From a virus (lineage: Duplodnaviria > Heunggongvirae > Uroviricota > Caudoviricetes), in the IMG/VR virus record IMGVR_UViG_3300020045_006153, positions 115,550 to 179,549 of that record: a stretch of 64,000 nt of DNA; one strand, given 5' to 3'. The stretch's first letter is position 1; each line of letters begins with the position of its first letter. Under the pieces are notes generated by a model. The model had not been told where the DNA came from and did no database searches. It saw nothing but the letters and a program-made list of their open reading frames with translations. A program made the position numbers and the translations under genes. Of the stretch, positions 181-17,503 are shown in pieces.

Positions 181-831
181 TTATTTTACTATCTGCGTTG
201 TGTAATATCTAGCCAATTGGATACGTTGTTCTAGACTAAGTCCGGGCCAATGAATAAGCCAATCTCCTATATGCCATGTACCGTCATTTCCGTAAAGATC
301 AGTTGAAGGTTGATTAGTATAGATAGCAGTATTGTATGCATTAAGATGACGTTGCGGCACTACTTTTACATTATCTTTAAAATCAGTTGCAATTAAATCA
401 ATCATCGATTGTTGTTCAAACCAATGATGACTTTTATATATTGGTTCTGATTCCCAGATTCGATTTATCCATTCTTTTCCTTTCGCACTGTTCTTTAATA
501 AAAAACTATCGCTATTAATACCATTACAATCGGATGCAATGATTACATCGAAGTTGTTATCAATTTTATCTTCTACTTTAGTTGTGAAATTTGTAATTAA
601 TGTGTCACAGCCCGTCCACCAGAACCAATCTACTTCGGGATTTAGTTCCATCATTTGCTTTAATAACCAAATCTTTTCAAATCCGATAGATATGTTTCCA
701 TGTAAGTCATCTGTCCTACAAAATGCTGTATAGTCGTGTAAGTCTGCATACACTTCTTTATTTTGAGTCCAAGTAATGTCACCGAGTGGTTGGTATTTTT
801 GATCATGCAGGCTAATTAGTGCTATATTCAT
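181..831 (-). CDS. Glycosyltransferase, GT34 (GMA12/MNN10)-like
   Basis: WFWWTGCDTLITN, DCNGINSDSFLLKN, EQQSM, DWLIHWPG motifs. Confidence 0.75.
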   Translation of the reverse strand: MNIALISLHDQKYQPLGDITWTQNKEVYADLHDYTAFCRTDDLHGNISIGFEKIWLLKQMMELNPEVDWFWWTGCDTLITNFTTKVEDKIDNNFDVIIASDCNGINSDSFLLKNSAKGKEWINRIWESEPIYKSHHWFEQQSMIDLIATDFKDNVKVVPQRHLNAYNTAIYTNQPSTDLYGNDGTWHIGDWLIHWPGLSLEQRIQLARYYTTQIVK

Positions 832-887
832 GACAATATTTATAGCCCTACTTAATGTAGGTAAATAAAATCAATACAAAGGTTAAC

Positions 888-1742
888 ATGAGAGTCTTCG
901 ACTGCTTCACATTTTACAACGAATTAGATATCGCAGAATTGCGAATACAAGAACTTTGGGACACAGTAGATTACTTTGTCATCGCCGAAGCAAATACAAC
1001 ACACCAAGGGAATCCGAAACCCTTCATTTTTAATGACAATTGGGAAAGATTTAAAAAATACGAAAGTAAGATTCGTCATATTATGATCGATGATATGCCA
1101 GTAAACTCAGATACATGGGTTCTGGAAAAGTTTCAACGTAAGAGTTTAGAAAGACGATTATTAGACTTGCAACCTGATGATATTGTAATTGTTAGTGACT
1201 GTGATGAAATTCCAAGGCCAGCAGCAATTGAAGCGATCAAAGAGGATGTAAACGACTATGATAGGTACATCCTTGCTATACCGTTAAATTACTATAGGTT
1301 TAACTTTATGATGATTAATCCCAATGTAAAGCAAAACAACATTGTTGTTACTCGTGGAAGAGCATTTACAAATCCTCAAGACGAACGTGCATTTACATTT
1401 AGTAGCAGCGGACTGCCTATGCATTTTGCAAACGAACATTTTTGTGTAATCGAGCATGGCGGGTGGCATTTTACATACTTTGGGCAGACTGATCATGCAA
1501 AGAACAAAATTAAAAACTTTGCACATGCTGAAACTAATGTACCTGAAATTATGGATAAGTTAGATGTTGACTACATGATTGCAAATAAAGTTGGATTGCT
1601 TGGTTTTGAATACCATGAAAGATTTGAATACATTAAAGTAGACGATTACTTTCCACAAACAATTTTAAATAATTTAGAAAAATACAAGGATATGATTGTC
1701 CCTAATGCAACTCACTTAGTTTACGATTTTTACCCGGAATAA
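888..1742 (+). CDS. Glycosyltransferase GT17 (beta-1,4-GlcNAc transferase)-like
   Basis: DCFTFYNELD, VDYFVIAE, SDCDEIP, GGWHFTY motifs. Confidence 0.85.
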   Translation: MRVFDCFTFYNELDIAELRIQELWDTVDYFVIAEANTTHQGNPKPFIFNDNWERFKKYESKIRHIMIDDMPVNSDTWVLEKFQRKSLERRLLDLQPDDIVIVSDCDEIPRPAAIEAIKEDVNDYDRYILAIPLNYYRFNFMMINPNVKQNNIVVTRGRAFTNPQDERAFTFSSSGLPMHFANEHFCVIEHGGWHFTYFGQTDHAKNKIKNFAHAETNVPEIMDKLDVDYMIANKVGLLGFEYHERFEYIKVDDYFPQTILNNLEKYKDMIVPNATHLVYDFYPE

Positions 1743-1744
1743 TT

Positions 1745-2317
1745 ATGCAACATTTTTATCAAGACATTTTTGGTTACTTTAGTTACGAATACATTTATCA
1801 CTACAAAGTGGCAGAAGCAGTAGACGGTGCAATATTTGTAGAGATCGGATCATTCAAAGGTAAGAGTTCATCCTTTATGGCAGTTGAGATTGCTAATAGT
1901 CAAAAGAAGATCGGATTTATTTGTATCGATCCCATGGAACTAATGAGCCACTATGTTAAAGATGCTTCTGCAAATCCGGCTTGGGAAGGATACAATGTAG
2001 AAAACTTTCGTAAAACAATGGAACCTGTAAAAGACTACTATATATTACTGCAAATGACAAGCGAAGCAGCCTCAACGCAGTTTAAGAATAATAGTATTGA
2101 CTTTATTATGATCGATGGAGACCACGAATATGAGGCAGTGAAGGCAGACATTCTTAACTTTTATCCAAAGATGAAAGACGGTGGTGAAATGTGGGGAGAT
2201 GATGCATGGGCTCCAACTATTTGGCAAGCAGCACAAGACGCAGCAAACGAACTAGGATTAGTAGCAGAACTCGTAAACAACAGTCATTTTAAAATTGTTG
2301 CCAAAAAACAACAATAA
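1745..2317 (+). CDS. Class I SAM-dependent methyltransferase (Methyltransf_24-like)
   Basis: VEIGSFKGKS, IDFIMIDGDHEYEAV motifs. Confidence 0.85.
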   Translation: MQHFYQDIFGYFSYEYIYHYKVAEAVDGAIFVEIGSFKGKSSSFMAVEIANSQKKIGFICIDPMELMSHYVKDASANPAWEGYNVENFRKTMEPVKDYYILLQMTSEAASTQFKNNSIDFIMIDGDHEYEAVKADILNFYPKMKDGGEMWGDDAWAPTIWQAAQDAANELGLVAELVNNSHFKIVAKKQQ

Positions 2318-2320: not shown

Positions 2321-2534
2321 TTGACAAAGTATAAATAACTCTATACAATAAAGACTTGCTAGAGATTACTGCATACGCAAATTGATAAAACAAAATGCAA
2401 ACAGGGGTTGACAGCAGGGATAAATAAACGTATAATTTAAACTTGTTAGCAAATACTGTACGCTAAAAAGAATTTGTAAAAAGATTCAAAATAAGCAAAT
2501 AGTACTTGACAACAGAGATAAATAAACGTATAAT
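2321..2534 (+). promoter_or_regulatory. Three tandem sigma70 promoters each with embedded ATAAATA late-type box
   Basis: TTGACA-17-TACAAT (2321/2344), TTGACA-17-TATAAT (2408/2431; 2506/2529); ATAAATAA in each spacer. Confidence 0.85.
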
Positions 2535-2973: not shown

Positions 2974-3053
2974 ATATTAAAGCACACTGCATCGTTGTAA
3001 GTGACTCGGCGAAAGCTGATATCGACCGCGGGATGTTAGGTGTGCTTTAATAT
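2974..3053 (+). ncRNA. Long-stem cassette RNA 1
   Basis: 14-bp perfect IR ATATTAAAGCACAC / GTGTGCTTTAATAT enclosing structured interior. Confidence 0.5.
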
Positions 3054-3085
3054 ACACATTCGAAAGAGTGTGTTAAATTATATTT

Positions 3086-3169
3086 GGTTCTGTGGGTGAG
3101 TGGCTGAAACCGTCGGACTGTAAATCCGATCTTAATAGCGCGTTGGTTCGAATCCAACCGGAACCACCA
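3086..3169 (+). tRNA. tRNA-Tyr(GTA)
   Basis: Cloverleaf, loop CTGTAAA, TTCGAAT T-loop, ACCA. Confidence 0.92.
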
Positions 3170-3174
3170 AATAT

Positions 3175-3249
3175 ACTGCTGTCGTCTAGTGGCTAGGACA
3201 TCTGGTTTTCATCCAGAGAAAGACGGATCGAAACCGTTCAGCAGTACCA
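3175..3249 (+). tRNA. tRNA-Glu(TTC)
   Basis: Cloverleaf, loop TTTTCAT, T-loop ATCGAAA, ACCA. Confidence 0.88.
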
Positions 3250-3254
3250 GTTTT

Positions 3255-3314
3255 AGGATACATACAGCAAACTTAAAATTTTAATATGGTTTTAAAAGAC
3301 AAAAATGTATCCTG
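3255..3314 (+). ncRNA. CAGCAA-motif RNA copy 1
   Basis: AGGATAC-ATA-CAGCAA ... GTATCCTG with internal TTTTAA/TTAAAA hairpin. Confidence 0.7.
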
Positions 3315-3323
3315 TTATATTAT

Positions 3324-3409
3324 GGAGTATTATACCGTTAAGGAGACGGTCCGGCCTGTAAAGTCGGCGCATTATTGCTCTGTTGGATCGTTACCAACAT
3401 ACTCCACCA
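3324..3409 (+). tRNA. tRNA-Tyr(GTA)
   Basis: GGAGTAT/ATACTCC acceptor, loop CTGTAAA, long variable arm, ACCA. Confidence 0.88.
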
Positions 3410-3416
3410 AGTTTAT

Positions 3417-3494
3417 CTCTCATTAATGTCAATCTGGTAGACGGCCTGATCTGGAGTCAGGAGGCTGTACGTTCGAATCGTACATGGGAGACCA
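3417..3494 (+). tRNA. tRNA-Pro(TGG), C33 variant
   Basis: CCTGA-TCTGGAG-TCAGG anticodon arm, T-loop TTCGAAT, ACCA. Confidence 0.75.
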
Positions 3495-3503
3495 AGTTTT
3501 TAT

Positions 3504-3577
3504 GCATCGGTAGTTTAATGGCAGAACCGCGGTGTTACATACCGCTGATGGGAGTTCAATTCTCCAACGATGTACCA
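3504..3577 (+). tRNA. tRNA-Val(TAC)
   Basis: GCGGT-GTTACAT-ACCGC anticodon arm, ACCA. Confidence 0.8.
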
Positions 3578-3582
3578 GTTTT

Positions 3583-3638
3583 AGGATCAGTTCAGCAAAC
3601 TTAAAAATTCACTGTAAATGAAATCAAAGTTGATCCTG
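3583..3638 (+). ncRNA. CAGCAA-motif RNA copy 2 carrying Tyr-type anticodon stem-loop
   Basis: AGGATCA-GTT-CAGCAA ... TTCA-CTGTAAA-TGAA ... TGATCCTG. Confidence 0.75.
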
Positions 3639-3649
3639 TTATATTTTAA

Positions 3650-3723
3650 CTCCGTGTGGTGAAATGGTATCACTCTTGGTTTGGGACCAAGGAGCGTAGG
3701 TTCGATTCCTACTACGGAGACCA
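3650..3723 (+). tRNA. tRNA-Pro(TGG)
   Basis: Cloverleaf, loop TTTGGGA, ACCA. Confidence 0.92.
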
Positions 3724-3728
3724 CATTT

Positions 3729-3792
3729 AGGATGCTTCCAGCAAACTTCTAAAAAATCAAATTGAAACTTTGACACTAAGAAATGCATCCTG
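3729..3792 (+). ncRNA. CAGCAA-motif RNA copy 3 carrying Phe-type anticodon stem-loop
   Basis: AGGATGC-TTC-CAGCAA ... TCAAA-TTGAAAC-TTTGA ... GCATCCTG. Confidence 0.75.
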
Positions 3793-3803
3793 TTAGTTTT
3801 TAT

Positions 3804-3877
3804 TCGGGATTTGTGTAGTGGTAGCACAACAGACTTTGACTCTGTCGGTATAAGTTCGATTCTTATATCCCGTACCA
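3804..3877 (+). tRNA. tRNA-Gln(TTG)
   Basis: ACAGA-CTTTGAC-TCTGT, T-loop, ACCA. Confidence 0.88.
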
Positions 3878-3883
3878 ATATAT

Positions 3884-3958
3884 GCCATGGTAGGACTCTG
3901 GGAGTTTACCACACTGTCGATGTGATTTAGGCGGGTTCAATTCCCGTCCATGGCGCCA
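3884..3958 (+). tRNA. tRNA-Asp(GTC)
   Basis: GCCATGG/CCATGGC acceptor, loop CTGTCGA, GCCA. Confidence 0.82.
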
Positions 3959-4018
3959 AGTTTGAAGACGACAAGGTTACCTGCACCACAATGTCAAGCA
4001 GGACTTCAATTAGTTAAT

Positions 4019-4093
4019 GGGGGCAGCAGAGGGCTGCGGGTTTGCTTTGCAAGCATACTGACTAGAACGGTTCGATACCGTCGGCCTCCACCA
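4019..4093 (+). tRNA. tRNA-Ala(TGC)
   Basis: G3.U70, loop TTTGCAA, ACCA. Confidence 0.8.
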
Positions 4094-4099
4094 AAGTTA

Positions 4100-4157
4100 C
4101 GGGGCAACAAAGAGCAACTCTGTTAGAGTTCGTACAGCAAGTTAAAATGCCCCGCCA
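4100..4157 (+). ncRNA. Acceptor-minihelix RNA with permuted CAGCAA motif
   Basis: GGGGCA/TGCCCC-G-CCA enclosing AACTCTG-TT-AGAGTTC-GTA-CAGCAA. Confidence 0.65.
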
Positions 4158-4161
4158 ATAT

Positions 4162-4237
4162 GTCCCTGTCGTCTACCTGGTTAGGACGTCAGCCTTTCAA
4201 GTTGAAAAATCGGGTTCGAGACCCGATGGGGACGCCA
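4162..4237 (+). tRNA. tRNA-Glu(TTC)
   Basis: TCAGC-CTTTCAA-GTTGA, GCCA. Confidence 0.9.
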
Positions 4238-4243
4238 AGTTAT

Positions 4244-4338
4244 GGGGAAGATGCTCTAAGGTAGAGTAATATGCATTCTGCTTAGAATGTTTACTGCAAA
4301 AATCAAACTAATTGGTTCGATTCCAATCTTCTCCACCA
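4244..4338 (+). ncRNA. Anticodon-less tRNA-like RNA (Ala identity) with permuted motif in place of anticodon arm
   Basis: GGGGAAG/CTTCTCC (G3.U70, A73), D-arm, GCATTCTG-CTT-AGAATG-TTTA-CTGCAA, T-arm, CCA. Confidence 0.75.
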
Positions 4339-4343
4339 ATTAT

Positions 4344-4421
4344 GCGGGTATACAGTGCAAAGGGCGCACAGCAGATTTCCAATCTGAAGATCGCGGAGTT
4401 CGATTCTCCATACCCGCTCCA
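4344..4421 (+). tRNA. tRNA-Gly(TCC)
   Basis: GCGGGTA acceptor, loop TTTCCAA, TCCA. Confidence 0.88.
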
Positions 4422-4426
4422 ATTAT

Positions 4427-4490
4427 AGGATGCTTCCAGCAAACTTTATAAATTTCAAAACCATTATCTTTGAAAAGAAAAAGCATCCTG
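4427..4490 (+). ncRNA. CAGCAA-motif RNA copy 4
   Basis: AGGATGC-TTC-CAGCAA ... TTCAAA/TTTGAA hairpin ... GCATCCTG. Confidence 0.7.
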
Positions 4491-4499
4491 ATATTTTAT

Positions 4500-4577
4500 T
4501 CCGCAGAAGCCAAGTAAGGACAAGGCCGTGACTGTTAATCACTGTTTAAACTGGTTCGATTCCAGTGTGCGGAGCCA
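4500..4577 (+). tRNA. tRNA-Asn(GTT)
   Basis: GTGA-CTGTTAA-TCAC, GCCA. Confidence 0.85.
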
Positions 4578-4586
4578 AGTTAGTTA

Positions 4587-4662
4587 GGTCTCAAAGTGTT
4601 CATGGACGCACACGACACTGTCACTGTCGAAGAGTGGGGATCGTTACCCCCTGGGACCGCCA
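4587..4662 (+). tRNA. tRNA-Asp(GTC)
   Basis: CGACA-CTGTCAC-TGTCG, GCCA. Confidence 0.88.
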
Positions 4663-4669
4663 ATTTTAT

Positions 4670-4744
4670 GTCCCTTTAGTATAATGGATAATACACAACG
4701 CTACGAACGTTGGGATCCAGGTTCGATTCCTGGGAGGGGCTCCA
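4670..4744 (+). tRNA. tRNA-Arg(ACG)
   Basis: CAACG-CTACGAA-CGTTG, TCCA. Confidence 0.92.
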
Positions 4745-4748
4745 ACTT

Positions 4749-4822
4749 GCCTTTTTAGTTTAATGGTAGAGCACCGGTTTTGTATTCCGGGAATAGGGGT
4801 TCGATTCCTCTAAAAGGCACCA
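4749..4822 (+). tRNA. tRNA-Thr(TGT)
   Basis: GCCTTTT/AAAAGGC, loop TTTGTAT, ACCA. Confidence 0.88.
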
Positions 4823-4845
4823 TGTGTTAGTGAGACATCTTAGGT

Positions 4846-4918
4846 GTGGCCTTAGTGTAAAGGTTAAGCACCTCACTCTGTGAAAGTGATAGAATGGGAT
4901 CAATACCCATAGGTCACC
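4846..4918 (+). tRNA. tRNA-His(GTG), no encoded CCA, embedded in flanking stem
   Basis: TCACT-CTGTGAA-AGTGA; C73; flanked by ACATCTTAG/CTAAGATGT. Confidence 0.82.
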
Positions 4919-4934
4919 CCTAAGATGTTTATAT

Positions 4935-5008
4935 TCCCGGTTAATTAAATGGTATAATACTCGCCTGATAAGCGGAATTTACAAGTTCGATTCTTGTACT
5001 GGGAACCA
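4935..5008 (+). tRNA. tRNA-Ile(GAT)
   Basis: Loop CTGATAA, T-loop, ACCA. Confidence 0.85.
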
Positions 5009-5018
5009 TAAGTTTTAT

Positions 5019-5273
5019 TTCGTTATAGTGTAGAGGAAGGTAGAGTAGTATTGAGTAGGTGAGATAAGTCAGTTAGTAATTCAAAGTAGATAACAATCGC
5101 GTAGGCTTTAAAACCAAACACTGTGAGTCCGGGAAGTGCGGAACAGGTTGAAATGAATGAAGGGTGAGATAAGGCGCTGAGGGGATACGAGGGTAACTTT
5201 GGGAAACACACGGGGACCCAGCATACGCGATTTTAGCCCCGCATCGCAAGTTCGAGTCTTGCTGACGAAGCCA
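5019..5273 (+). ncRNA. 255-nt tRNA-like RNA (acceptor stem + T-arm + CCA, ~200-nt insert)
   Basis: TTCGTTA/TGACGAA-G-CCA; GCAAG-TTCGAGT-CTTGC; internal ATCGCGTA/TACGCGAT helix. Confidence 0.65.
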
Positions 5274-5279
5274 GTTTAT

Positions 5280-5373
5280 ATGTCTGTAGTTCAATGAGGT
5301 GCGCAAGTAATTCCTCGAAGTCAGAACGCCCTTGATCAGGGAGATGGAGGTTAGAGACCTTCTGGGCATGCCA
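5280..5373 (+). tRNA. Atypical tRNA with hairpin inserted in D-loop, 5-nt anticodon loop (TGATC)
   Basis: ATGTCTG/TGGGCAT-G-CCA; GTTC..GAAC D-stem enclosing GAGG..CCTC hairpin. Confidence 0.55.
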
Positions 5374-5378
5374 GTTTT

Positions 5379-5497
5379 AGGATGTTTACCGCAAACTTTA
5401 TCTTTATTCCAAACTAGTGGTCCGGTTCGATTCCGGCGTCCGATTCGGATGTGGTGTAATGGTAGCACACAAGTCCACAAGAGAAAACAGCATCCTG
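5379..5497 (+). ncRNA. Circularly permuted tRNA-Gly(TCC) bracketed by CAGCAA-type motif
   Basis: 3' half (nt33-73) 5407-5444 fused to 5' half (nt1-32) 5445-5475 inside AGGATG..CCGCAA / CATCCTG. Confidence 0.75.
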
Positions 5498-5506
5498 TTA
5501 TTTTAT

Positions 5507-5583
5507 GCCTTCGTACGCTAATTGGTAGTGCGGATAGTTTTAGAAACTGTTGGTTGGGGGTTCGAATCCGCCCGAAGGTACCA
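5507..5583 (+). tRNA. tRNA-Leu(TAG), short variable arm
   Basis: ATAGT-TTTAGAA-ACTGT, 5-nt variable loop, ACCA. Confidence 0.8.
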
Positions 5584-5590
5584 TAGTTAT

Positions 5591-5679
5591 TGGGGAGTGG
5601 TGAAATTGGTTAGCCACACTGGTCTTTGAAATCAGCGCCTGTAATGGGCATGTAGGTTCGACTCCTACCTCCTCAGCCA
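5591..5679 (+). tRNA. tRNA-Gln(TTG) with long variable arm
   Basis: U1-A72,G73; CTGGT-CTTTGAA-ATCAG; extra GCCT/GGGC arm. Confidence 0.8.
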
Positions 5680-5685
5680 AGTTAT

Positions 5686-5760
5686 ATCTTGTTAGTTTAA
5701 TGATTAGAACGCTAGCATTTTCGGCTAGTAATGCAGATTCGATCCTTGCACAAGATACCA
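5686..5760 (+). tRNA. Degenerate tRNA (anticodon TTT by position)
   Basis: CTAGC-ATTTTCG-GCTAG; imperfect T-arm; ACCA. Confidence 0.6.
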
Positions 5761-5865
5761 CAGAGTATAAGTAGTCCTAAGCAACCTGGACCCTGCTCAA
5801 ACGAACCAGCGTAACTGGGATGCGATACTTTCGCTTGAGAGGTTAGCCCTCACAGTAAGAATAAC

Positions 5866-5943
5866 GCCAGAGTAGCTCCAATTGCGTAGAGCAGCAGCCT
5901 GAAAAGTTGTGTGTTGTCGGTTCGAATCCGACCTTTGGTACCA
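5866..5943 (+). tRNA. tRNA-Phe(GAA)
   Basis: Loop CTGAAAA, ACCA. Confidence 0.9.
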
Positions 5944-5949
5944 TTTTAT

Positions 5950-6035
5950 GGATAGTTGTGCGCTGGCCGCAAGTTGGTTTGCTAAACCGATCCACTGCTA
6001 ACGCGGTGACAGTTCGATTCTGTATCTATCCTCCA
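5950..6035 (+). tRNA. tRNA-Ser(GCT)
   Basis: Loop TTGCTAA, long variable arm. Confidence 0.85.
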
Positions 6036-6042
6036 AGTTTAT

Positions 6043-6118
6043 GCACCTTTAGCTGATGTGGTCATAGTGGCGGTCTGAAGATCCGTTGAAGTTGGTTCGA
6101 TTCCAACAGGGTGCACCA
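6043..6118 (+). tRNA. tRNA-Phe(GAA)
   Basis: Loop CTGAAGA, ACCA. Confidence 0.85.
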
Positions 6119-6128
6119 AGTTAGTATT

Positions 6129-6202
6129 GCTCTTATCGTTAAATGGTAGGACACCTCTTTGGTAAGGAGGGAATAGAAGTTCGATTCTTCTTGAGAGCAC
6201 CA
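6129..6202 (+). tRNA. tRNA-Thr(GGT)
   Basis: CCTCT-TTGGTAA-GGAGG, ACCA. Confidence 0.9.
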
Positions 6203-6209
6203 AATTTAT

Positions 6210-6298
6210 GGGCTGGCGCCGTGGGACACGGCCGAAGTTGCAGTGATGTGACATGCGGAAAAGCGCTGAGAAGGTTCAACTCCTTTCCTAGTCCACCA
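6210..6298 (+). ncRNA. Aberrant tRNA-like RNA with Ala identity
   Basis: GGGCTGG/CTAGTCC (G3.U70) A73 CCA, T-loop TTCAACT, no canonical anticodon arm. Confidence 0.55.
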
Positions 6299-6300
6299 GA

Positions 6301-6476
6301 TTTTTGAGATAGACGAGGGAGTTATAGCATTGCCTAACAATGCTGAGTCGTAAGTAGCGGTGAATGTAGCAGGTCTAGTGCTACATTGACGGGTTTAACG
6401 TGAAAGAAACAAGATCTCCTCCCATCGAGACAACCCGTTGAGTCCCTTCAATAAGGATAGGCGGCCTCTCAAAAAA
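6301..6476 (+). ncRNA. Multi-helix structured RNA of unknown class
   Basis: TTTTTGAGA/TCTCAAAAA closing stem, hairpins AGCATTG/CAATGCT, AATGTAGCA/TGCTACATT, ACGGGTT/AACCCGT. Confidence 0.5.
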
Positions 6477-6675
6477 CTATTTGGGGTGAATGGTTAGAAG
6501 CGGGTTCGATTCCCGTATAGTCCACCATAAAGTATATCGCCTAGTCGACGAGGGTCAGGTCGTGCTTACTATAAGAAAGTAAGTTTTCCTGGCAGGTATA
6601 CTTCATAATGGGCTAGGTTGGATCCGCCTCCTAGGGGCATTGCAGGGTTCGATTCCCGCGCACTCCACCAAATAT

Positions 6676-6762
6676 GGATTATAGATGTGCTGGGCACTAA
6701 GCGGCTTCGAATACCGTTCCACTTAGAAATAGGTGATAGTTCGATTCTATTATAATCCGCCA
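6676..6762 (+). tRNA. tRNA-Ser(CGA)
   Basis: GGATTAT acceptor, loop TTCGAAT, long variable arm, GCCA. Confidence 0.75.
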
Positions 6763-6777
6763 ATAAATAAAGAATAT

Positions 6778-6867
6778 GGAGTGTAGAGTTCATGGTGAGC
6801 AAGCAGCCTTGAAAACTGTTCCACTGGTTAGTAGCCGGTGATGGTTCGATTCCATTACACTCCGCCA
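6778..6867 (+). tRNA. tRNA-Ser(TGA)
   Basis: Loop CTTGAAA, long variable arm, GCCA. Confidence 0.85.
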
Positions 6868-6873
6868 AAATAT

Positions 6874-6960
6874 GGAAGATAGAAGTGCTGGGCACTAAGC
6901 AACTTGGAAAGTTGTTCCACTGTGAAAACGGTGACAGTTCGATTCTGTTATCTTCCTCCA
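6874..6960 (+). tRNA. tRNA-Ser(GGA)
   Basis: GCAAC-TTGGAAA-GTTGT, long variable arm. Confidence 0.85.
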
Positions 6961-6966
6961 AATTAT

Positions 6967-7044
6967 AGTGCGGTGCCCGAGTGGTCCAAGGGAACTGATT
7001 GCAAACCAGTAAAACCGTGAGTTCAAATCTCACCCGCACTTCCA
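6967..7044 (+). tRNA. tRNA-Cys(GCA)
   Basis: Loop TTGCAAA, U73, CCA. Confidence 0.9.
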
Positions 7045-7049
7045 AATAT

Positions 7050-7125
7050 ACGTCGTTCTTCTAACTGGCAAGATAACGGACTCCAAATTCGTTTAATATA
7101 GGTTCGAATCCTATGCGGCGTGCCA
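7050..7125 (+). tRNA. tRNA-Trp(CCA)
   Basis: Loop CTCCAAA, GCCA. Confidence 0.88.
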
Positions 7126-7135
7126 ACATAAATAC

Positions 7136-7720
7136 GTGATGAGAATAACTGAACTTTTTGAATCACGTAGTGCTGATTTGTATCACGGTACAAATCTGTT
7201 AAAATTAAATAACATATTGCAAAGAAATATGTTTAAAGCAAGTGCATCTGTCCGCAGCGATATTGTACCGCATACGTTTAAAGGACATAGTAGAACTGTT
7301 TCTTTTTCTAGAGATCCGAATATGTCAGTTAACTTTGCTCGTTCTAAAGCAGGCGGGGAAGAAGGCATTAACGGTATACCAGTTGTCATTGTTGTGGATC
7401 AAAATAAATTATATCAAACTGTAGGTAGAAGAATGCAGGCATATAATGATCTTGCATTAACACATAATGGAACAGAAAGATCAAATGGCGGTAGTGAGTC
7501 TGAGGAAGTTGTTTTTGGAGACATAAATGATGCTAATGCTTTTATTAAAAAGATTATCATTCATATGCCCAAAAATGCAGGTAAAGACTTAACAAGTGCA
7601 TTGGCTAAATGCACTAATATCTTAGGTGATCCGCGTACTGTGATAGTAGATTTTCTAAATAAACCACTATCGGGTAAAGAATTCATCAATATAGCAAATA
7701 ATAATGTATCTCTAGTGTAA
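7136..7720 (+). CDS. ADP-ribosyltransferase-fold protein, putative virion-packaged
   Basis: LYHGT, VSFSRD, ESEEVV motifs; N-term MRITELFES; CATAAATA upstream. Confidence 0.6.
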   Translation: MMRITELFESRSADLYHGTNLLKLNNILQRNMFKASASVRSDIVPHTFKGHSRTVSFSRDPNMSVNFARSKAGGEEGINGIPVVIVVDQNKLYQTVGRRMQAYNDLALTHNGTERSNGGSESEEVVFGDINDANAFIKKIIIHMPKNAGKDLTSALAKCTNILGDPRTVIVDFLNKPLSGKEFINIANNNVSLV

Positions 7721-7779
7721 TGGCAGCATTCCGGTCTCCAAAACCGTCAGTCAAGGTTCGAGTCCTTGGAGGTACGCCA
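7706..7779 (+). tRNA. tRNA-Trp(CCA), overlapping upstream ORF end
   Basis: Loop CTCCAAA, T-loop TTCGAGT, GCCA. Confidence 0.9.
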
Positions 7780-7790
7780 TAAATATTGTT

Positions 7791-8327
7791 ATGAAATCTT
7801 TAAGACATTATATTAATTTAGTAGAGCAATCAGAGGATGACTACGTATATCACGGTGGATCATATGCAGGCGGAGAATATAATCCTAGCAAGGTGGGTGA
7901 ACCAGGTAATATTCGCCCACTAGGTGTAGGTATATATGCAGCCAAAACTCCTGAACATGCACAACTATATGTGAAATATGCAGGATCTAATGGTGCTGTT
8001 AAAAAATTTAAAGTTTCAAAAACTGCTAAATTATATCCATGGGGCGCTGATGCATGGAGTAAATTAACTCCTGCCGAAGCGGCACAATGGAGAGCAAAGT
8101 CTGCAGAAATTCAAACTGCATTTGAAAAAGCAAATTTAGTTAAATTTAATACTTTTAGAAAACAGTATAATCATTGGCAAGATGCAGTATCAGGATTTGG
8201 TGCATTTGATAAAGAACAAATGAGAAAGATTTTAGTATCAGTTGGAGTCGATGGCGCTAAACAAATTCTTAGCGACGACATGACTGAATTAGTGTTTTAT
8301 AACACTTCAGTGTTAACTCCGGTATAA
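7791..8327 (+). CDS. ADP-ribosyltransferase-fold protein (ART-PolyVal-like)
   Basis: VYHG, LGVGIYAA..A..Y, GVDG, ELVFY motifs; N-term MKSLRHYINLVE. Confidence 0.6.
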   Translation: MKSLRHYINLVEQSEDDYVYHGGSYAGGEYNPSKVGEPGNIRPLGVGIYAAKTPEHAQLYVKYAGSNGAVKKFKVSKTAKLYPWGADAWSKLTPAEAAQWRAKSAEIQTAFEKANLVKFNTFRKQYNHWQDAVSGFGAFDKEQMRKILVSVGVDGAKQILSDDMTELVFYNTSVLTPV

Positions 8328-8328
8328 T

Positions 8329-9057
8329 ATGAAAATCACAGAACTCATAACAGAACGCAGACAACAAAATATATCAGTTGTGTATCACGGTACATCTTCT
8401 AATTTTGTTAGATCTATTTTAAAAACAGGATTAAGTCCAGTGCCTCCAAAACGGTCGTGGGGTGATAGTGATAAGATGGGTGCTGATAAAGAAAGCCTTC
8501 CTGGAATATACTTAACTCCACGATTAGATTATGCTCAAACCGCAGCCAAACAGTCAGTGGAACTTAATGGCGGAACTCCGACTCTTATTACTGTACAATA
8601 CGTATCAGGAAGCGGAGGATTAGATGAAGATAATATCACTGGTATTGTGTGTTACGCTGTTTCAGAAGATTACGATGCATTTATAAAAGATTTTGATCAT
8701 CAATTTTTAGATATAATTAGTCGAGTTAAGGATCGATTAAAGAATACAGCATTGAATAATCGAAGTATTGAAATACTAAAACAATTAGTAAAAGTTGCGG
8801 TTAATATTACTTCAAAAAATTACGAAGAAGTTCAAGGAACTGAATTTCGATCAATATTATCTAATCCGCAGTTTAGACAATTACTGATAAAATTTACAGA
8901 ATCTGTTAAAGTTCACTCATCGGAAAATCCAGATTGGACTTCGGAACACATAAAAGTAACACGCATAATTGGTTTCAGCGGTAAGACGAAAATAGTTAAA
9001 ATCGAAGATTTAAAAACAAAAGCAGTGTACTATGAAAAGCATGAAGTCAGCCGCTAA
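8329..9057 (+). CDS. ART-fold protein, Tpt1/KptA-like first strand
   Basis: VYHGTSSNFVRSILKTGLSP, GIYLT..DYA; N-term MKITELITE. Confidence 0.6.
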   Translation: MKITELITERRQQNISVVYHGTSSNFVRSILKTGLSPVPPKRSWGDSDKMGADKESLPGIYLTPRLDYAQTAAKQSVELNGGTPTLITVQYVSGSGGLDEDNITGIVCYAVSEDYDAFIKDFDHQFLDIISRVKDRLKNTALNNRSIEILKQLVKVAVNITSKNYEEVQGTEFRSILSNPQFRQLLIKFTESVKVHSSENPDWTSEHIKVTRIIGFSGKTKIVKIEDLKTKAVYYEKHEVSR

Positions 9058-9226
9058 TTTTAAATTACGTGGAAAATTAAGAATGATGTGTCAATGTGGT
9101 TGTTGTGAAGTTTATAACCCTACATGGACAGAACGGTTAAAAGAAGCAAAGAAAGAAGTTGACAACTACTGTAACACGTTGTATAATAAACAAGAAGGAA
9201 AAGGCAATGAAGGCGAATTATCGTAA
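9032..9226 (+). CDS. Hypothetical protein (CxCGCC)
   Basis: ORF track, overlaps previous stop. Confidence 0.5.
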   Translation: MKSMKSAANFKLRGKLRMMCQCGCCEVYNPTWTERLKEAKKEVDNYCNTLYNKQEGKGNEGELS

Positions 9227-9350
9227 GTTAAATGATCATTCACACAGTTCGAGCACTTACCACAAGAAAGATGGCACACCAGTTCGTGCTATTTTAAAAG
9301 AAGAACTTAAGAAAGAAGTAAAGGCATTATATGAAGCGAAAATCCGCTAA
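9207..9350 (+). CDS. Small basic hypothetical protein
   Basis: In-frame ATG after sigma70 promoter at 9160-9190. Confidence 0.5.
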   Translation: MKANYRKLNDHSHSSSTYHKKDGTPVRAILKEELKKEVKALYEAKIR

Positions 9351-9422
9351 ACTATAGTGTCACACTAAACCCCATGTATGGTTTAAGGTGGCACGTAAAA
9401 GACAATTATCAATACGTAACAC

Positions 9423-9496
9423 CCACTGCAAACATTAAGGTGATGTACTAGGCTCTTACCCTAGGAAACACGGTTCAATACCGTGGCAGTGGACCA
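9423..9496 (+). tRNA. tRNA-Lys(CTT)
   Basis: CTAGG-CTCTTAC-CCTAG, ACCA. Confidence 0.88.
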
Positions 9497-9501
9497 TATA
9501 T

Positions 9502-9575
9502 GGGGTTCAAATTTTAAAGTGAAATATCTGGCTTTTAACCAGAAGAACACGGGGCAGTACCGTGGAGCCCTACCA
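9502..9575 (+). tRNA. tRNA-Lys(TTT)
   Basis: TCTGG-CTTTTAA-CCAGA; T-loop GGCAGTA; ACCA. Confidence 0.82.
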
Positions 9576-9694
9576 TATATAAGCATACTCGACGGCCTAA
9601 CACGGGCGCTTAAACCGTGTATCGAGAGACCAGAGATGTTGCTATCAGGAGTATGCTTATATATGGTATAAATAGTGTACAAGGAGTACAGTAT

Positions 9695-9928
9695 ATGACA
9701 GATATCAATAGTGCAATTACAGCCGCAGCAACTGATGCAATCTTAAGTGATGCAGTAGGTAAGAAGTGGTATGCATCTAAGACTTTTTGGGTTAATGTAA
9801 TTTCAGCAGCAACATTGCTTGCGCAAATACGTTATGGATTTATTATTGATCCAGCAACTCAAGCATTAATATTAACTGGAGTTAATATTGTATTGCGTAA
9901 AATTACAAAAGAATCAGTTACATTTTAA
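9695..9928 (+). CDS. Small membrane protein (holin-like), late promoter
   Basis: TATAAATA at 9667, AGGAG SD, KKWYASKTFWVN then hydrophobic helices. Confidence 0.55.
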   Translation: MTDINSAITAAATDAILSDAVGKKWYASKTFWVNVISAATLLAQIRYGFIIDPATQALILTGVNIVLRKITKESVTF

Positions 9929-10029
9929 TATGTAAAAATAATGCGCCGGGTTTGTTTATCCCGAGGAGTACACGGCTAGTGGAAGTGATTTAATTCATGG
10001 ACATCGAGGGAGCCTAACATAAACAATAT

Positions 10030-10104
10030 GCGGGTATGGTGCTAGTGGTAACACATAACTTTGCCAAAGTTAAATTACGAGTTCGATTCTCGTTACCCGC
10101 TCCA
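10030..10104 (+). tRNA. tRNA-Gly(GCC)
   Basis: Loop TTGCCAA, TCCA. Confidence 0.9.
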
Positions 10105-10108
10105 ATAT

Positions 10109-10183
10109 CGGTCTTTAGTGAAATGGATATCACCATTGTCTTCGAAACAGTAAGTAGAGGTTCGATTCCTCTAAGACCGGCCA
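10109..10183 (+). tRNA. tRNA-Arg(TCG)
   Basis: Loop CTTCGAA, GCCA. Confidence 0.9.
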
Positions 10184-10186
10184 AAT

Positions 10187-10384
10187 TTAAAACCGACGAT
10201 CGTTATTCACTAAGTCAATATATTCGCTTAGATGGTCTTCGTCGAAAAAATATCGTATTTGCTTTGTCTTATACGGTGTGAATACTTTAGTCATGAATAG
10301 ATCATCAATAATTGCAAGGTGTATTATATAACCGTAGTAATTTGTAATAGGTCCAAATGTTTGATAATGAAAATCTGTATTCAT
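10187..10384 (-). CDS. Hypothetical protein
   Basis: ORF fills gap between tRNA and GT gene. Confidence 0.5.
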   Translation of the reverse strand: MNTDFHYQTFGPITNYYGYIIHLAIIDDLFMTKVFTPYKTKQIRYFFDEDHLSEYIDLVNNDRRF

Positions 10385-10415
10385 GAAATATTTATTATTT
10401 TATAGTAAATATTTC

Positions 10416-11114
10416 ATGAATAAATTTACGTTAGTATTACCAACTATGTGGAGATATGCTCCATTTATGGACTTTCTTCCAGACCTATTAAATCACGAAT
10501 TAGTGGATGAGATTATTGTATTTGACAATGATCCAACAAAAACTCCATCTAGTGGAATACTTAATCATCCAAAGGTTAATTATCAATGCGTAGGAGAGAA
10601 CATTTATGTTAATCCAGCATGGAACAAAGGTGTAGAGTTAAGTAGAAATAAACTTATCGGGTTTATCAGTGACGATGTAATTTTTGATATGCGTTTGTTG
10701 CCTAGGGTTGCAAATTTGTTATCAACTAGATGCGGAGTAATAGGAAATTGTCCAGGACTTGAGCAGTTTAATCAGCCTCCATTTAAAGATGGAGCAATTA
10801 ATCTTGTTCCATGGGGAGGACAACATACATTCGGCTTTGGTTGCTTGATGTTTGTGCATAAAGATACATACATTCCAATACCCGAAGGACTAAAATTGTT
10901 CTACGGTGATGAATGGATTTTTGATACGTATTTGTATAGAGGGTATCTTAATTATTTGATAACGAATATTTTGTTACATACTCCACATGCGGCAACAACA
11001 ACTGACCCAAGTGCAAACTTAGATATTACTAAGTTTATGAGAGAAGAAAAAATTATATATGAACCTGCTTTTGCAGAGTTCAAAGAAAAAGTTAACGCGC
11101 AAGTAGTGCAATAG
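10416..11114 (+). CDS. GT2/GT-A fold glycosyltransferase
   Basis: LVLPT, DEIIVFDND, NPAWNKG, ISDDV motifs. Confidence 0.75.
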   Translation: MNKFTLVLPTMWRYAPFMDFLPDLLNHELVDEIIVFDNDPTKTPSSGILNHPKVNYQCVGENIYVNPAWNKGVELSRNKLIGFISDDVIFDMRLLPRVANLLSTRCGVIGNCPGLEQFNQPPFKDGAINLVPWGGQHTFGFGCLMFVHKDTYIPIPEGLKLFYGDEWIFDTYLYRGYLNYLITNILLHTPHAATTTDPSANLDITKFMREEKIIYEPAFAEFKEKVNAQVVQ

Positions 11115-11174
11115 GTAGGAGACAACAGACTTAAAATCTGTACAGTACGGGTTCGAATCCCGTCTTGCGCACCA
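11097..11174 (+). tRNA. tRNA-Leu(TAA), short variable arm, overlapping ORF end
   Basis: ACAGA-CTTAAAA-TCTGT, ACCA. Confidence 0.88.
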
Positions 11175-11179
11175 ATTAA

Positions 11180-11252
11180 CCCGAGTGTCGTCTAGATCCG
11201 AAAAGAAGCCAGGCACATAGTGCTTGATCGCAACTGAGTAGACTCGGGACCA
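11180..11252 (+). ncRNA. CCA-ended non-cloverleaf RNA
   Basis: CCCGAGT/ACTCGGG-A-CCA; internal CAGGCAC/GTGCTTG hairpin; no T-loop. Confidence 0.5.
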
Positions 11253-11257
11253 TTATC

Positions 11258-11331
11258 GCCCTTTTCGTATAGTGTGAATACGTCTGTTTCGTAATCAGAA
11301 TACAGGAGTTAGATTCTTCTAAAGGGCACCA
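11258..11331 (+). tRNA. tRNA-Thr(CGT)
   Basis: Loop TTCGTAA, ACCA. Confidence 0.85.
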
Positions 11332-11336
11332 AAAAT

Positions 11337-11456
11337 GCAGACCTAGCTTAATGGTAGAGCACGTAGAAAGCGATCCTGATAAGGATACAATACAGCACTA
11401 CAAATCATTCCACTCACTAGGACGGGATCGTGGTTCGAATCCACGGGTCTGCACCA
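11337..11456 (+). ncRNA. tRNA body with permuted CAGCA motif inserted in anticodon arm
   Basis: GCAGACC/GGTCTGC-ACCA, D- and T-arms intact; ATCCTG-ATA-AGGATAC-AATA-CAGCAC insert. Confidence 0.75.
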
Positions 11457-11461
11457 AACAC

Positions 11462-11535
11462 GGTTCGTTAGTTCAATGGTAGAACACTGATTTGACTTGT
11501 CAGATACAAAGGTCCGATTCCTTTACGATCCACCA
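11462..11535 (+). tRNA. tRNA-Val(GAC)
   Basis: CTGAT-TTGACTT-GTCAG, ACCA. Confidence 0.82.
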
Positions 11536-11596
11536 TAATCATACTGTAATCATGGTAATTACTTAGAATAACTAAATATTGATATTGGGAGCATCA

Positions 11597-12646
11597 ATGT
11601 CAAAAGTACTTTTTATTTTAAAACGCCGCGAAGATTACAACGCAACACTTCATTCTGCAATTGGCATGAGCACAGGACTTTATAATTCTGCAAGTTTCAT
11701 GAATGCTATGTTAAACGAAAATGGTGTTGACTCTACTTTAGTAGTAGTAACTGATAATAACGATATTGATCGAGAAGTACGTAAGCATAACCCAACTCAT
11801 GTAATTATTGAAGCATTGTGGGTAGTACCAACAAAGTTTACTGTATTGAAAAAGTTACATCCTAATGTAACATGGGTTATTCGTGTACATTCTGAAATGC
11901 CATTTATGGCCGGCGAGGGCATGGCAATGGATTGGTTAGGAGATTACAGTGCTACAAAAAATGTAGTTATTGCAATGAACGCGCCTCGCATGTTACGTGA
12001 GGTACGTATGTTTTTACAACATAAGAATCAATGGAGTGACGAGGTTGCAAATAAAAAAGTAATTTACTTACCTAATTATTATCCTCATGGACATGTAACA
12101 AAGAAAATAGATAAGACTAAAGATACAATTGATATTGGATGTTTTGGAGCAGTTCGTCCATTAAAAAATCATCTTGTGCAAGCATTTGCTGCAATTGATT
12201 TTGCAAATCAAATTGGAAAAAAATTAAGATTCCACGTAAATGCTGGCCGAATTGAAATGCAAGGTGGGCCTGTATTAAATAACTTAAGATCATTGTTTGA
12301 ACATATATATGATCATGGTCATGAGATGATTAATCACGAATGGGCTCCTAGAGAGCAGTTTCTTGATGTTTGTGCTCAAATGGACATAGGATTGCAAGTA
12401 AGTTTCTCTGAAACATTTAATATTGTCGGTGCTGACTTACTTAGTCAAGGTGTTCCGTTGGTAGGAAGCACAGAAATTCCATTTTGTGCATGGCCATTCT
12501 GTGCTAACCCTACTGAGAGTGAGGATATTGTGCGTAAACTAAAGTTAGCATACTACTTTCCAGAAATAAATGTTGCAGTAAACAATTGGTTACTAACGCG
12601 ATACACTAATAAAACTGCATGTATTTGGACTAAATACTTCAAATAA
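11597..12646 (+). CDS. GT4-like (GT-B) glycosyltransferase
   Basis: IGCFGAVRPLKN, QVSFSETFNIVGAD..SQGVPLV motifs. Confidence 0.75.
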   Translation: MSKVLFILKRREDYNATLHSAIGMSTGLYNSASFMNAMLNENGVDSTLVVVTDNNDIDREVRKHNPTHVIIEALWVVPTKFTVLKKLHPNVTWVIRVHSEMPFMAGEGMAMDWLGDYSATKNVVIAMNAPRMLREVRMFLQHKNQWSDEVANKKVIYLPNYYPHGHVTKKIDKTKDTIDIGCFGAVRPLKNHLVQAFAAIDFANQIGKKLRFHVNAGRIEMQGGPVLNNLRSLFEHIYDHGHEMINHEWAPREQFLDVCAQMDIGLQVSFSETFNIVGADLLSQGVPLVGSTEIPFCAWPFCANPTESEDIVRKLKLAYYFPEINVAVNNWLLTRYTNKTACIWTKYFK

Positions 12647-12656
12647 GGACAATATT

Positions 12657-12860
12657 ATGCAACGTAAAAAAAATCAACGCCACAAAGTACATTTATTTAA
12701 ATGGAGCGGGAGCACCTTGAAGAAGATCGAGCACTGGTTCGAACATTTTGTAGATGCATTATTTTTTGCCAATTGTAGCGGCAGCACTGCGGTGAAGATT
12801 TATCATGATGACGATTTAGTACATAGTGGTAAACCTTGCGCGCCAGACGGATATGCTTAA
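12657..12860 (+). CDS. Hypothetical protein
   Basis: ORF with SD. Confidence 0.55.
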   Translation: MQRKKNQRHKVHLFKWSGSTLKKIEHWFEHFVDALFFANCSGSTAVKIYHDDDLVHSGKPCAPDGYA

Positions 12861-12886
12861 ATTAAATTGGTAAAACAATAAAATTA

Positions 12887-17447: not shown

Positions 17448-17503
17448 AGAATGCGTTCTGCAACCAAAACAATTCAACTTTTAATTGAAAAATAAGCATT
17501 CTG
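17448..17503 (+). ncRNA. CTGCAA-motif RNA copy carrying Lys-type anticodon stem-loop
   Basis: AGAATGC-GTT-CTGCAA ... TTCAA-CTTTTAA-TTGAA ... GCATTCTG. Confidence 0.75.

What the first reader, a model, noticed from the sequence alone, without database searches (positions are those of the whole stretch)
4244..4338. Anticodon-less, alanine-identity tRNA whose anticodon arm is replaced by the motif
Seen: perfect acceptor with G3.U70 and A73-CCA, normal D- and T-arms, but ATAT-GCATTCTG-CTT-AGAATG-TTTA-CTGCAA-AAATCAAACTA where the anticodon arm should be (same helix variant as the Lys-ASL copy at 17448). Knowledge: AlaRS needs only G3.U70, and tmRNA uses an anticodon-less Ala domain plus SmpB. Inference: a chargeable, non-decoding tRNA mimic, possibly for ribosome rescue/stalling or as a splicing acceptor for ASL donors.
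Basis: partly seen in the sequence, partly recalled or inferred. Interest (0 to 1): 0.75.

Follow-up and report, generated by a model that had tools for sequence, protein, structure and literature searches.

The report
Anticodon-less tRNA mimic with protein handle

Summary
A capped, circularly permuted copy of a repeated stem+C[ACT]GCAA 'handle' replaces the anticodon arm. The D arm is not normal (A8, 6-7-bp hairpin). I found 16 distinct orthologues (68-91% identical). All four helices covary (97% of cells paired; acceptor 100%), so it is not a pseudogene. G3.U70 occurs in only 2/16 (G-C 11, A-U 3), the discriminator varies, and encoded CCA is relaxed, so alanine identity is not the selected function. 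The helix match to the Lys-ASL RNA is not conserved. No SmpB, tmRNA or splicing endonuclease was found. The handle travels with a DUF2828 protein predicted to fold like Ro60, and also sits at that gene's ribosome-binding site. Best reading: a Y-RNA-like partner of this protein, with the opposite permutation to YrlA, displaying a tRNA acceptor/elbow (decoy or tether; inferred). The scan has already reported the DUF2828+handle family on many other genomes. I found no paper on the family or on this open-ended form. Binding, charging and expression are untested.

The parts
4244..4338 (+). Whole RNA gene (95 nt): tRNA body with free 5' and CCA ends and a capped handle in place of the anticodon and variable arms
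   Evidence: lies between tRNA-Glu (4162-4237) and a tRNA-Gly-like gene (4346-4416), with 6-7-nt spacers
4244..4250 (+). Acceptor stem 5' strand (G3 = 4246); pairs with 4328-4334
   Evidence: 112/112 cells paired in 16 orthologues, 4 of 7 pairs with changes on both sides
4252..4268 (+). Non-canonical D hairpin (6-7 bp, AGG loop carrying the G18/G19 equivalents); A8 instead of U8
   Evidence: (6 of 6 pairs covary, 90% paired)
4273..4299 (+). Circularly permuted handle: 3' helix strand + G, 3-nt cap, 5' helix strand, 4 nt, CTGCAA core; predicted docking site for the DUF2828 (Ro60-fold) protein
   Evidence: (99% paired, 3 pairs covary)
4300..4310 (+). A-rich linker, 9-11 nt in the 11 orthologues parsed
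4311..4327 (+). T arm; four inner stem pairs invariant and T loop canonical
4328..4338 (+). Acceptor 3' strand (U70 = 4332), discriminator A73 (4335) and encoded CCA
4100..4157 (+). Sibling: permuted handle closed by an acceptor-like minihelix ending in CCA; an orthologue follows the type-A RNA in G013
5379..5497 (+). Sibling: linear handle enclosing T arm, closed acceptor and D arm (YrlA topology, the opposite permutation of the finding)
17448..17503 (+). Sibling: linear handle with the same helix variant, enclosing a Lys(UUU)-like anticodon hairpin
3255..3314 (+). Sibling linear handle RNA; further copies start at 3583, 3729, 4427, 17594 and 19067
   Evidence: weak match to Dictyostelium Class I RNA
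2408..2534 (+). Two perfect sigma-70-type promoter matches ahead of the tRNA array; likely source of the polycistronic precursor (inferred)
   Evidence: 12/12 matches

Best explanation
The gene encodes a Y-RNA-like partner of the phage's DUF2828/DUF7788 protein, a Ro60-fold ring (gene outside the window, G000:103208-104605, about 15 kb upstream). Shown here: the RNA structure is conserved; the handle is a family motif shared by about ten RNAs of this array and by the leader of the DUF2828 gene; the protein is predicted to fold like Ro60; handle and protein co-occur across phages. Inferred steps: (1) the RNA is cut from the tRNA polycistron like a tRNA (RNase P at the 5' end, trimming to CCA at the 3' end); (2) the protein binds the stem+CAGCAA-type handle, which occupies the anticodon-arm position exactly as the Ro60-binding stem does in YrlA, except that here the handle is capped by a loop and the acceptor end is open; (3) the particle displays the top half and elbow of a tRNA without any decoding capacity. 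Its siblings display anticodon loops, a minihelix or a sealed tRNA body, so the most likely job (about 50% given the rest) is bait or decoy for host enzymes that attack or use tRNA acceptor ends and elbows; the alternative is a Y-RNA-style tether for a host nuclease such as PNPase. Amino-acid identity is not what is selected: G3.U70 is best read as the wobble intermediate between the G-C and A-U states of this pair.
For: Covariation in 16 orthologues: 97.4% of cells paired, 14 of 24 pairs changed on both sides, 0/500 shuffles as high, slid controls 45-58% (the alignment is fitted to the model, but one search gives 95.8% on a plain MAFFT alignment of 11). Five orthologues were found with a pattern covering only T arm and acceptor, and they again carry the handle, some with other helix sequences. 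Pair 3-70: G-C 11, A-U 3, G.U 2; N73 is A, G or U. Encoded CCA is missing in 4 of 15 orthologues from genomes whose ordinary tRNAs encode it in 243 of 252 cases (Fisher p 0.003). DUF2828 is in this genome; PHROG 850 'RNA-binding protein'; invariant D-x-S-G-S MIDAS-type motif; AlphaFold model pLDDT 82 whose 13 Foldseek hits at E<=0.001 are all Ro60 proteins, TM 0.43-0.61. A linear handle ends 12 nt before the DUF2828 start codon, next to its Shine-Dalgarno; 27/40 DUF2828 leaders have one against 6/742 other ORFs (many leaders are close kin). All 10 long records with a tRNA-bodied permuted handle encode DUF2828, as do the near-complete G091, G092 and G094. Of 19 large control records 2 had DUF2828 and both carry handles; the other 17 gave at most one isolated candidate (by inspection). 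YrlA precedent: Ro60 stem at the anticodon position; M. smegmatis YrlA is opened by RNase P and receives CCA (PMC4201824; 10.1101/312249).
Against: The handle lacks the GNCGAAN0-1G motif of YrlA (PMC4201824), the Rfam YrlA model finds nothing over cut-off, and TROVE PF05731 is absent. The gene is 15 kb from DUF2828, farther than the 4 kb typical of YrlA. G017 (71% complete) has handles but no DUF2828 match. Eleven orthologues were found with patterns that contained the handle, which inflates its apparent conservation. The decoy function rests only on the anatomy of the siblings.
Confidence: 0.68

Rival explanations
1. One reading: an alanine-charged, tmRNA-like mimic that enters the ribosome for rescue or stalling.
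For: G3.U70, A73 and CCA in this copy and in its closest orthologue L056; a weak tmRNA model match over exactly 4244-4338; G3:U70 suffices for Ala charging of odd tRNAs (PMC5389517).
Against: G3.U70 in only 2/16 orthologues, mixed discriminator; CCA relaxed; no SmpB, no tmRNA over cut-off, no tag frame; the true tRNA-Ala at 16302 scores higher on the same model, so the match reflects the acceptor/T arm only. A 465-aa ring at the anticodon position would not fit the decoding centre (inference).
Confidence: 0.06
2. The handle is a general stability or processing element, or the site of another phage or host protein; DUF2828 linkage is real but indirect, and the tRNA body mainly protects the RNA from exonucleases.
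For: Binding is untested; the same stem+ACAGCAA design in Dictyostelium Class I RNAs was reported to bind an RRM protein directly (PMC7919456); Chen et al. propose nuclease protection as one role of the tRNA module (PMC4201824).
Against: The handle abuts the ribosome-binding site of DUF2828 itself in 27/40 leaders, the usual arrangement for an autoregulated RNA-binding protein; the protein has the Ro60 fold; T-stem and acceptor sequences are more conserved than pairing needs.
Confidence: 0.15
3. A charged carrier for a non-ribosomal use or a sink for a synthetase, with an identity that differs between phages.
For: A perfect acceptor stem in all 16 orthologues, invariant G1-C72, G2-C71 and A6-U67; CCA encoded in 11/16; the host enzyme could add CCA to the rest (general knowledge).
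Against: No common identity set across orthologues; loss of encoded CCA is well above the rate in neighbouring tRNAs; no partner enzyme identified.
Confidence: 0.06
4. A splicing acceptor that receives an anticodon loop from linear donors such as the 17448 RNA.
For: Same helix variant in both RNAs of this genome; the two are circular permutations of each other; an Rnl2-family ligase is encoded at window about 26586-27647.
Against: In G006 the Lys-ASL RNA has a different helix from the type-A RNA, and G043, G044 and G041 have Lys-ASL RNAs with the common helix and no type-A RNA in the stretches read. No splicing endonuclease or RtcB. The body lacks U8/A14 and any anticodon stem; the product would put Ala at Lys codons, and the genome already has tRNA-Lys(UUU) and tRNA-Ala.
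Confidence: 0.03
5. A decayed tRNA gene (pseudogene) into which a motif copy was inserted.
For: Lacks U8 and an anticodon; not called by ARAGORN.
Against: 16 orthologues at 68-91% identity with no acceptor or T-stem mismatch and compensatory changes in all four helices.
Confidence: 0.02

Closest known systems
YrlA-type bacterial and phage Y RNAs with Ro60/Rsr (Rfam RF02553; Chen et al. 2014, PMC4201824; Wang et al. 2018, 10.1101/312249)
   Same: tRNA-like acceptor/T/D module without anticodon loop; protein-docking stem in the anticodon-arm position; Ro60-fold protein in the same genome; several sibling RNAs. The RNase P-opened, CCA-tailed M. smegmatis YrlA is the two-piece equivalent.
   Different: Opposite circular permutation (open acceptor with encoded CCA, capped docking stem, one piece); core C[ACT]GCAA, not GNCGAAN0-1G; protein is DUF2828+DUF7788, not TROVE; long D hairpin without U8; no Rfam YrlA match; 15 kb from the protein gene.
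Thermus phage phiLo Ro60 with Yrl1/Yrl2 (PMC12135203; PDB 9KOP, 9L5Y)
   Same: Best structural match of the DUF2828 model (TM 0.61, 16% identity); a phage Ro60-fold protein binding phage RNAs with a stem and a short motif.
   Different: Its RNAs use a CGAA motif and were not described as tRNA-bodied.
tmRNA tRNA-like domain with SmpB (Rfam RF00023)
   Same: Anticodon-less, CCA-ended; G3.U70 and A73 in this copy.
   Different: No mRNA-like domain or tag, no SmpB, has a D stem, and Ala identity is not conserved.
Dictyostelium Class I RNAs (Rfam RF01414; PMC7919456)
   Same: Short terminal stem, adjacent motif ending ACAGCAA, closing CUG and a variable interior; a linear sibling scores 30.9 bits.
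   Different: Below the 41.5-bit cut-off; reported only in dictyostelids; no tRNA body; here the handle is permuted; homology versus convergence is not resolved.
allo-tRNAs with 8/4 or 9/3 acceptor branch (Mukai et al., PMC5389517)
   Same: Long D stem with a small loop; position 8 can pair with 65 in 16/16 orthologues, allowing an 8/4 fold.
   Different: allo-tRNAs have an anticodon arm and a long variable arm and many decode; 7/5 and 8/4 folds have nearly equal computed energy here, so 8/4 is not established.

Membership tests
YrlA Y RNA (RF02553) | Match to the Rfam covariance model | tested here: not met
   Best score in the genome 16.4 bits against 69, and not at this element
YrlA Y RNA (RF02553) | GNCGAAN0-1G Ro60-binding motif near the 5' end | tested here: not met
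   Core is C[ACT]GCAA, internal; only minor variants in the orthologues
YrlA Y RNA (RF02553) | Order T arm, closed acceptor, D arm (permuted tRNA) | tested here: not met
   Canonical order with open acceptor and CCA; the sibling at 5379 has the YrlA order
YrlA Y RNA (RF02553) | tRNA-like D/T elbow module, no anticodon loop | tested here: met
   Canonical T loop in 16/16 and GG in the D loop in 15/16 as aligned
Ro60/Y RNA particle (broad) | Ro60-fold protein (helical ring + vWA/MIDAS) in the genome | tested here: met
   DUF2828 model matches only Ro60 structures at E<=0.001; D-x-S-G-S invariant. TROVE HMM itself is negative
Ro60/Y RNA particle (broad) | RNA gene within about 4 kb of the protein gene, same strand | tested here: not met
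   Same strand but about 15 kb away; another handle copy abuts the gene start
Ro60/Y RNA particle (broad) | Direct binding of the RNA by the protein | not testable with these tools
   Only indirect support
tmRNA (RF00023) | mRNA-like domain with tag frame; score over 47 bits | tested here: not met
   95 nt, 23.4 bits; ARAGORN calls no tmRNA
tmRNA (RF00023) | Conserved G3.U70 and A73 | tested here: not met
   Present in this copy but in only 2/16 orthologues
tmRNA (RF00023) | SmpB partner | tested here: inconclusive
   No SmpB in the phage; a host SmpB cannot be excluded
tRNA-Ala (decoding tRNA) | Anticodon stem-loop, U8 and A14 | tested here: not met
tRNA-Ala (decoding tRNA) | Alanylation by AlaRS | not testable with these tools
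   Determinants present in this copy only
Dictyostelium Class I RNA (RF01414) | Terminal stem plus 11-nt motif; score over 41.5 bits | tested here: not met
   The finding itself gives no match; linear siblings 20-30.9 bits
allo-tRNA | 8/4 or 9/3 acceptor branch | tested here: inconclusive
   8-65 is Watson-Crick in 16/16, but 49-65 also pairs in 16/16 and the energies are close
allo-tRNA | Anticodon arm and long variable arm | tested here: not met
   Replaced by the handle

The most novel reading that the evidence does not exclude
Jumbo phages use a DUF2828 Ro60-like ring to display a library of tRNA parts (anticodon loops, minihelix, sealed body, and this open CCA-ended top half) as decoys against tRNA-targeting immunity, including tail-cutting effectors such as Cas12a3 (PMC12851939). 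The same handle would be homologous to the unexplained Dictyostelium Class I RNAs, making DUF2828 proteins a second, cross-domain Ro60/Y-RNA branch.
Probability: 0.22. Interest if true: 0.87.

Novelty: new variant of a known kind. Interest (0 to 1): 0.6.

Why it matters
It would add a topology to the Ro60/Y-RNA world: a single-piece, CCA-ended tRNA mimic whose anticodon arm is a protein-docking site. What the tRNA module of Y RNAs binds is an open question (PMC4201824; 10.1101/312249). Here both permutations sit in one operon, and related handle-bearing tRNA bodies exist in cultured phages (Aeromonas Aeh1, PX29, phiAS5), so the question can be tested at the bench. It also assigns a probable RNA ligand to DUF2828, a widespread family of unknown function, suggests a test for Dictyostelium Class I RNAs, and flags mis-annotated phage tRNAs (the Aeh1 'tRNA-Val CAC').

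Tried and rejected
TROVE PF05731 search: negative. Sequence search of the PDB with DUF2828: nothing; only the fold search worked. BLAST of 4090-4500 against cultured phages hit only the neighbouring tRNA-Gly; no cultured phage with the exact type-A RNA was found. A tree of the 16 RNAs was unresolved (1 of 13 inner branches supported), so one or two origins of G3.U70 cannot be told apart. 7/5 versus 8/4 folding could not be separated by energy. The scan of genome contigs gave no answer, so bacterial copies were not examined. T4-type Rnl1 search was uninformative because no control rang; RtcB, CCA/poly(A) polymerase and splicing endonuclease were negative. Two reviews (Burroughs and Aravind 2016; Sim et al. 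2020) are not held, so the literature check has that gap; DUF2828 appears in 5 unrelated papers and other searches found no description of this RNA. The co-occurrence Fisher value printed was built from hand-sorted, partly circular counts and is not used. No protein-complex job was sent because the tool cannot score RNA partners. Whether Dictyostelium DDB_G0281243 (a Class I RNA pull-down protein of unknown function, 10.1101/2020.04.05.026054) is a DUF2828 protein could not be checked.

Full report
Setting. The window is positions 115550-179549 of a 353-kb, 99% complete phage record with about 45 tRNA genes in window 3000-20000. The finding lies between tRNA-Glu and a tRNA-Gly-like gene, separated by 6-7-nt spacers, downstream of two perfect sigma-70 consensus promoters. 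Co-transcription and tRNA-like processing are inferred from this layout.

Observation. The letters are as described: a 7-bp acceptor with G3.U70, A73 and CCA, a canonical T arm, and between D and T arms a hairpin, a 4-nt spacer, the hexamer CTGCAA and an A-rich linker. There is no anticodon stem-loop. The fold is far better than shuffles (z -3.76). The D arm is not normal: A8 and U14 replace U8 and A14, and the arm is a 6-7-bp hairpin with an AGG loop; 43 of 49 ordinary tRNAs of the genome have U8. The inserted part is a circularly permuted copy of a motif ('handle', a word taken from earlier scan notes) found in ten RNAs of the array: eight linear copies whose ends form the helix and which enclose anticodon-like hairpins or a back-to-front tRNA body, and two permuted copies, this one and a minihelix at 4100. 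The permuted pattern never arose in 300 resamples.

Orthologues. Pattern scans of viral and metagenomic contigs gave 11 distinct orthologues. A pattern made only of T arm and acceptor gave five more, again with the handle, some with changed helix sequences. The 16 are 68-91% identical to this copy. On the model-fitted alignment 97.4% of cells pair, 14 of 24 pairs show changes on both sides, and acceptor and T stems have no mismatch; a plain MAFFT alignment of 11 gives 95.8%. This rejects the pseudogene reading. It also removes the alanine reading: pair 3-70 is G-C in 11, A-U in 3 and G.U in 2, and N73 is A, G or U. G.U is the expected intermediate between G-C and A-U, and the A-U group shares this copy's 3' strand. 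Encoded CCA is absent in 5 of 16. One of these genomes does not encode CCA on its tRNAs either, but the other four do: 4 of 15 against 9 of 252 ordinary tRNAs (Fisher p 0.003). What is kept is the shape of the tRNA top half and elbow, plus the handle. This copy may still be alanylated, since G3:U70 is enough in odd tRNAs (PMC5389517).

The partner. No TROVE domain is encoded, but a 465-aa DUF2828+DUF7788 gene lies about 15 kb upstream on the same strand. PHROGs names the family an RNA-binding protein. Its predicted structure (pLDDT 82) matches only Ro60 proteins at E<=0.001: phiLo Ro60, Xenopus, human and Deinococcus (TM 0.43-0.61, 10-16% identity). A linear handle sits in its leader, ending next to the Shine-Dalgarno sequence. 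27 of 40 DUF2828 leaders have one, including divergent variants in distant phages, against 6 of 742 other ORFs (the leaders are not independent). All 10 long records with tRNA-bodied permuted handles encode DUF2828, as do three further near-complete ones. Among 19 large control records the only two with DUF2828 turned out to carry handles, and the rest gave at most one isolated candidate. One 71% complete record has handles without a DUF2828 match. Binding is therefore strongly suggested but not shown.

How it most likely works. In YrlA the Ro60-binding stem takes the place of the anticodon arm, the acceptor is sealed, and the RNA ends lie in the docking stem; in M. smegmatis RNase P opens the acceptor and CCA is added (PMC4201824; 10.1101/312249). 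The finding has the same geometry with the ends moved: open acceptor, capped docking stem. The sibling at 5379 has the YrlA order. I infer a particle in which the ring holds the handle and presents a tRNA top half that cannot decode. Because the siblings present other tRNA parts, among them Lys, Tyr, Asn and Glu anticodon-like loops in this and related phages, bait for tRNA-attacking host enzymes is the single most likely job; tail-cutting immunity exists (Cas12a3, PMC12851939). A tether for PNPase, as shown for Deinococcus and phiLo (PMC4201824, PMC12135203), is the main alternative. Neither is tested.

Ribosome rescue lacks SmpB, a tag frame and conserved Ala identity; the weak tmRNA score is exceeded by the genome's real tRNA-Ala. 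Splicing with the 17448 RNA rests on a shared helix variant that G006 does not keep; there is no splicing endonuclease or RtcB, although an Rnl2-type ligase is present.

Relatives and literature. Other tRNA-bodied permuted forms exist: with a canonical D arm and the same acceptor in Aeromonas phages Aeh1, PX29 and Ah1 (annotated tRNA-Val in Aeh1), and with an added Tyr-like loop in other jumbo phages. The handle resembles the Dictyostelium Class I RNA consensus (30.9 bits, under cut-off), whose function is unknown (PMC7919456). Rfam has no family for the element and paper searches found no description, with two relevant reviews unavailable. The scan's own notes already report the DUF2828+handle family on at least 176 genomes; those notes are not independent evidence. 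None of the 16 notes shown from other genomes described the open, CCA-ended form or tested its amino-acid identity.

Verdict. A real, conserved RNA gene that works most likely like a Y RNA but is not a member of YrlA by motif, topology or model score. New variant of a known kind; interest 0.6.

Noticed in passing
G000:103161-103195 (outside the window; L001 about 956-990): Linear handle between a sigma-70-type promoter and the Shine-Dalgarno of the DUF2828 gene; probable autoregulatory operator, conserved in 27/40 leaders.
   Followed up: yes
window 3256-3314, 4428-4490, 3730-3792: Linear handle RNAs match the Dictyostelium Class I RNA model at 20-30.9 bits; DDB_G0281243, a Class I pull-down protein of unknown function, is worth a DUF2828 check.
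   Followed up: partly
L010:8905-9026 and 9043-9158 (Aeh1, AY266303 96384-96637): Two tandem tRNA bodies with an inserted permuted handle in cultured Aeromonas phages; one is annotated as tRNA-Val(CAC), about 2.7 kb from the DUF2828 gene Aeh1ORF154c.
   Followed up: partly
L059:2305-2425, L023, L017, L033, L043, L019: tRNA bodies that carry both the permuted handle and a Tyr(GUA)-like 7-nt loop before the T arm.
   Followed up: no
window 4100-4157; L592 (G013): CCA-ended minihelix closing a permuted handle; an orthologue lies directly after the type-A RNA in G013.
   Followed up: partly
window 26586-27647: Rnl2-family RNA ligase gene (PF09414, 99.8 bits).
   Followed up: no
G000:98311-98387 (outside the window): tRNA with a CUA (amber) anticodon called by ARAGORN.
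   Followed up: no
window 5591-5679: Gene called tRNA-Gln(UUG) with G3.U70 and a long variable arm; identity and anticodon disagree.
   Followed up: no
window 4018-4093, 3418-3490, 4346-4416: tRNA-like genes missed by default ARAGORN (Ala UGC and Gly UCC at a relaxed threshold; 3418 by Rfam only).
   Followed up: no
window 5019-5276: About 255-nt tRNA-ended RNA with a long purine-rich insert.
   Followed up: no
window 181-2317: Glycosyltransferase (GT34, GT17) and methyltransferase genes just upstream of the tRNA array.
   Followed up: no
L212, L216, L218 leaders: In 350-380-kb phages with 46%-identical DUF2828 the leader handle has a CAACA core, and their tRNA arrays use a different helix: possible co-evolution of protein and motif.
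   Followed up: no
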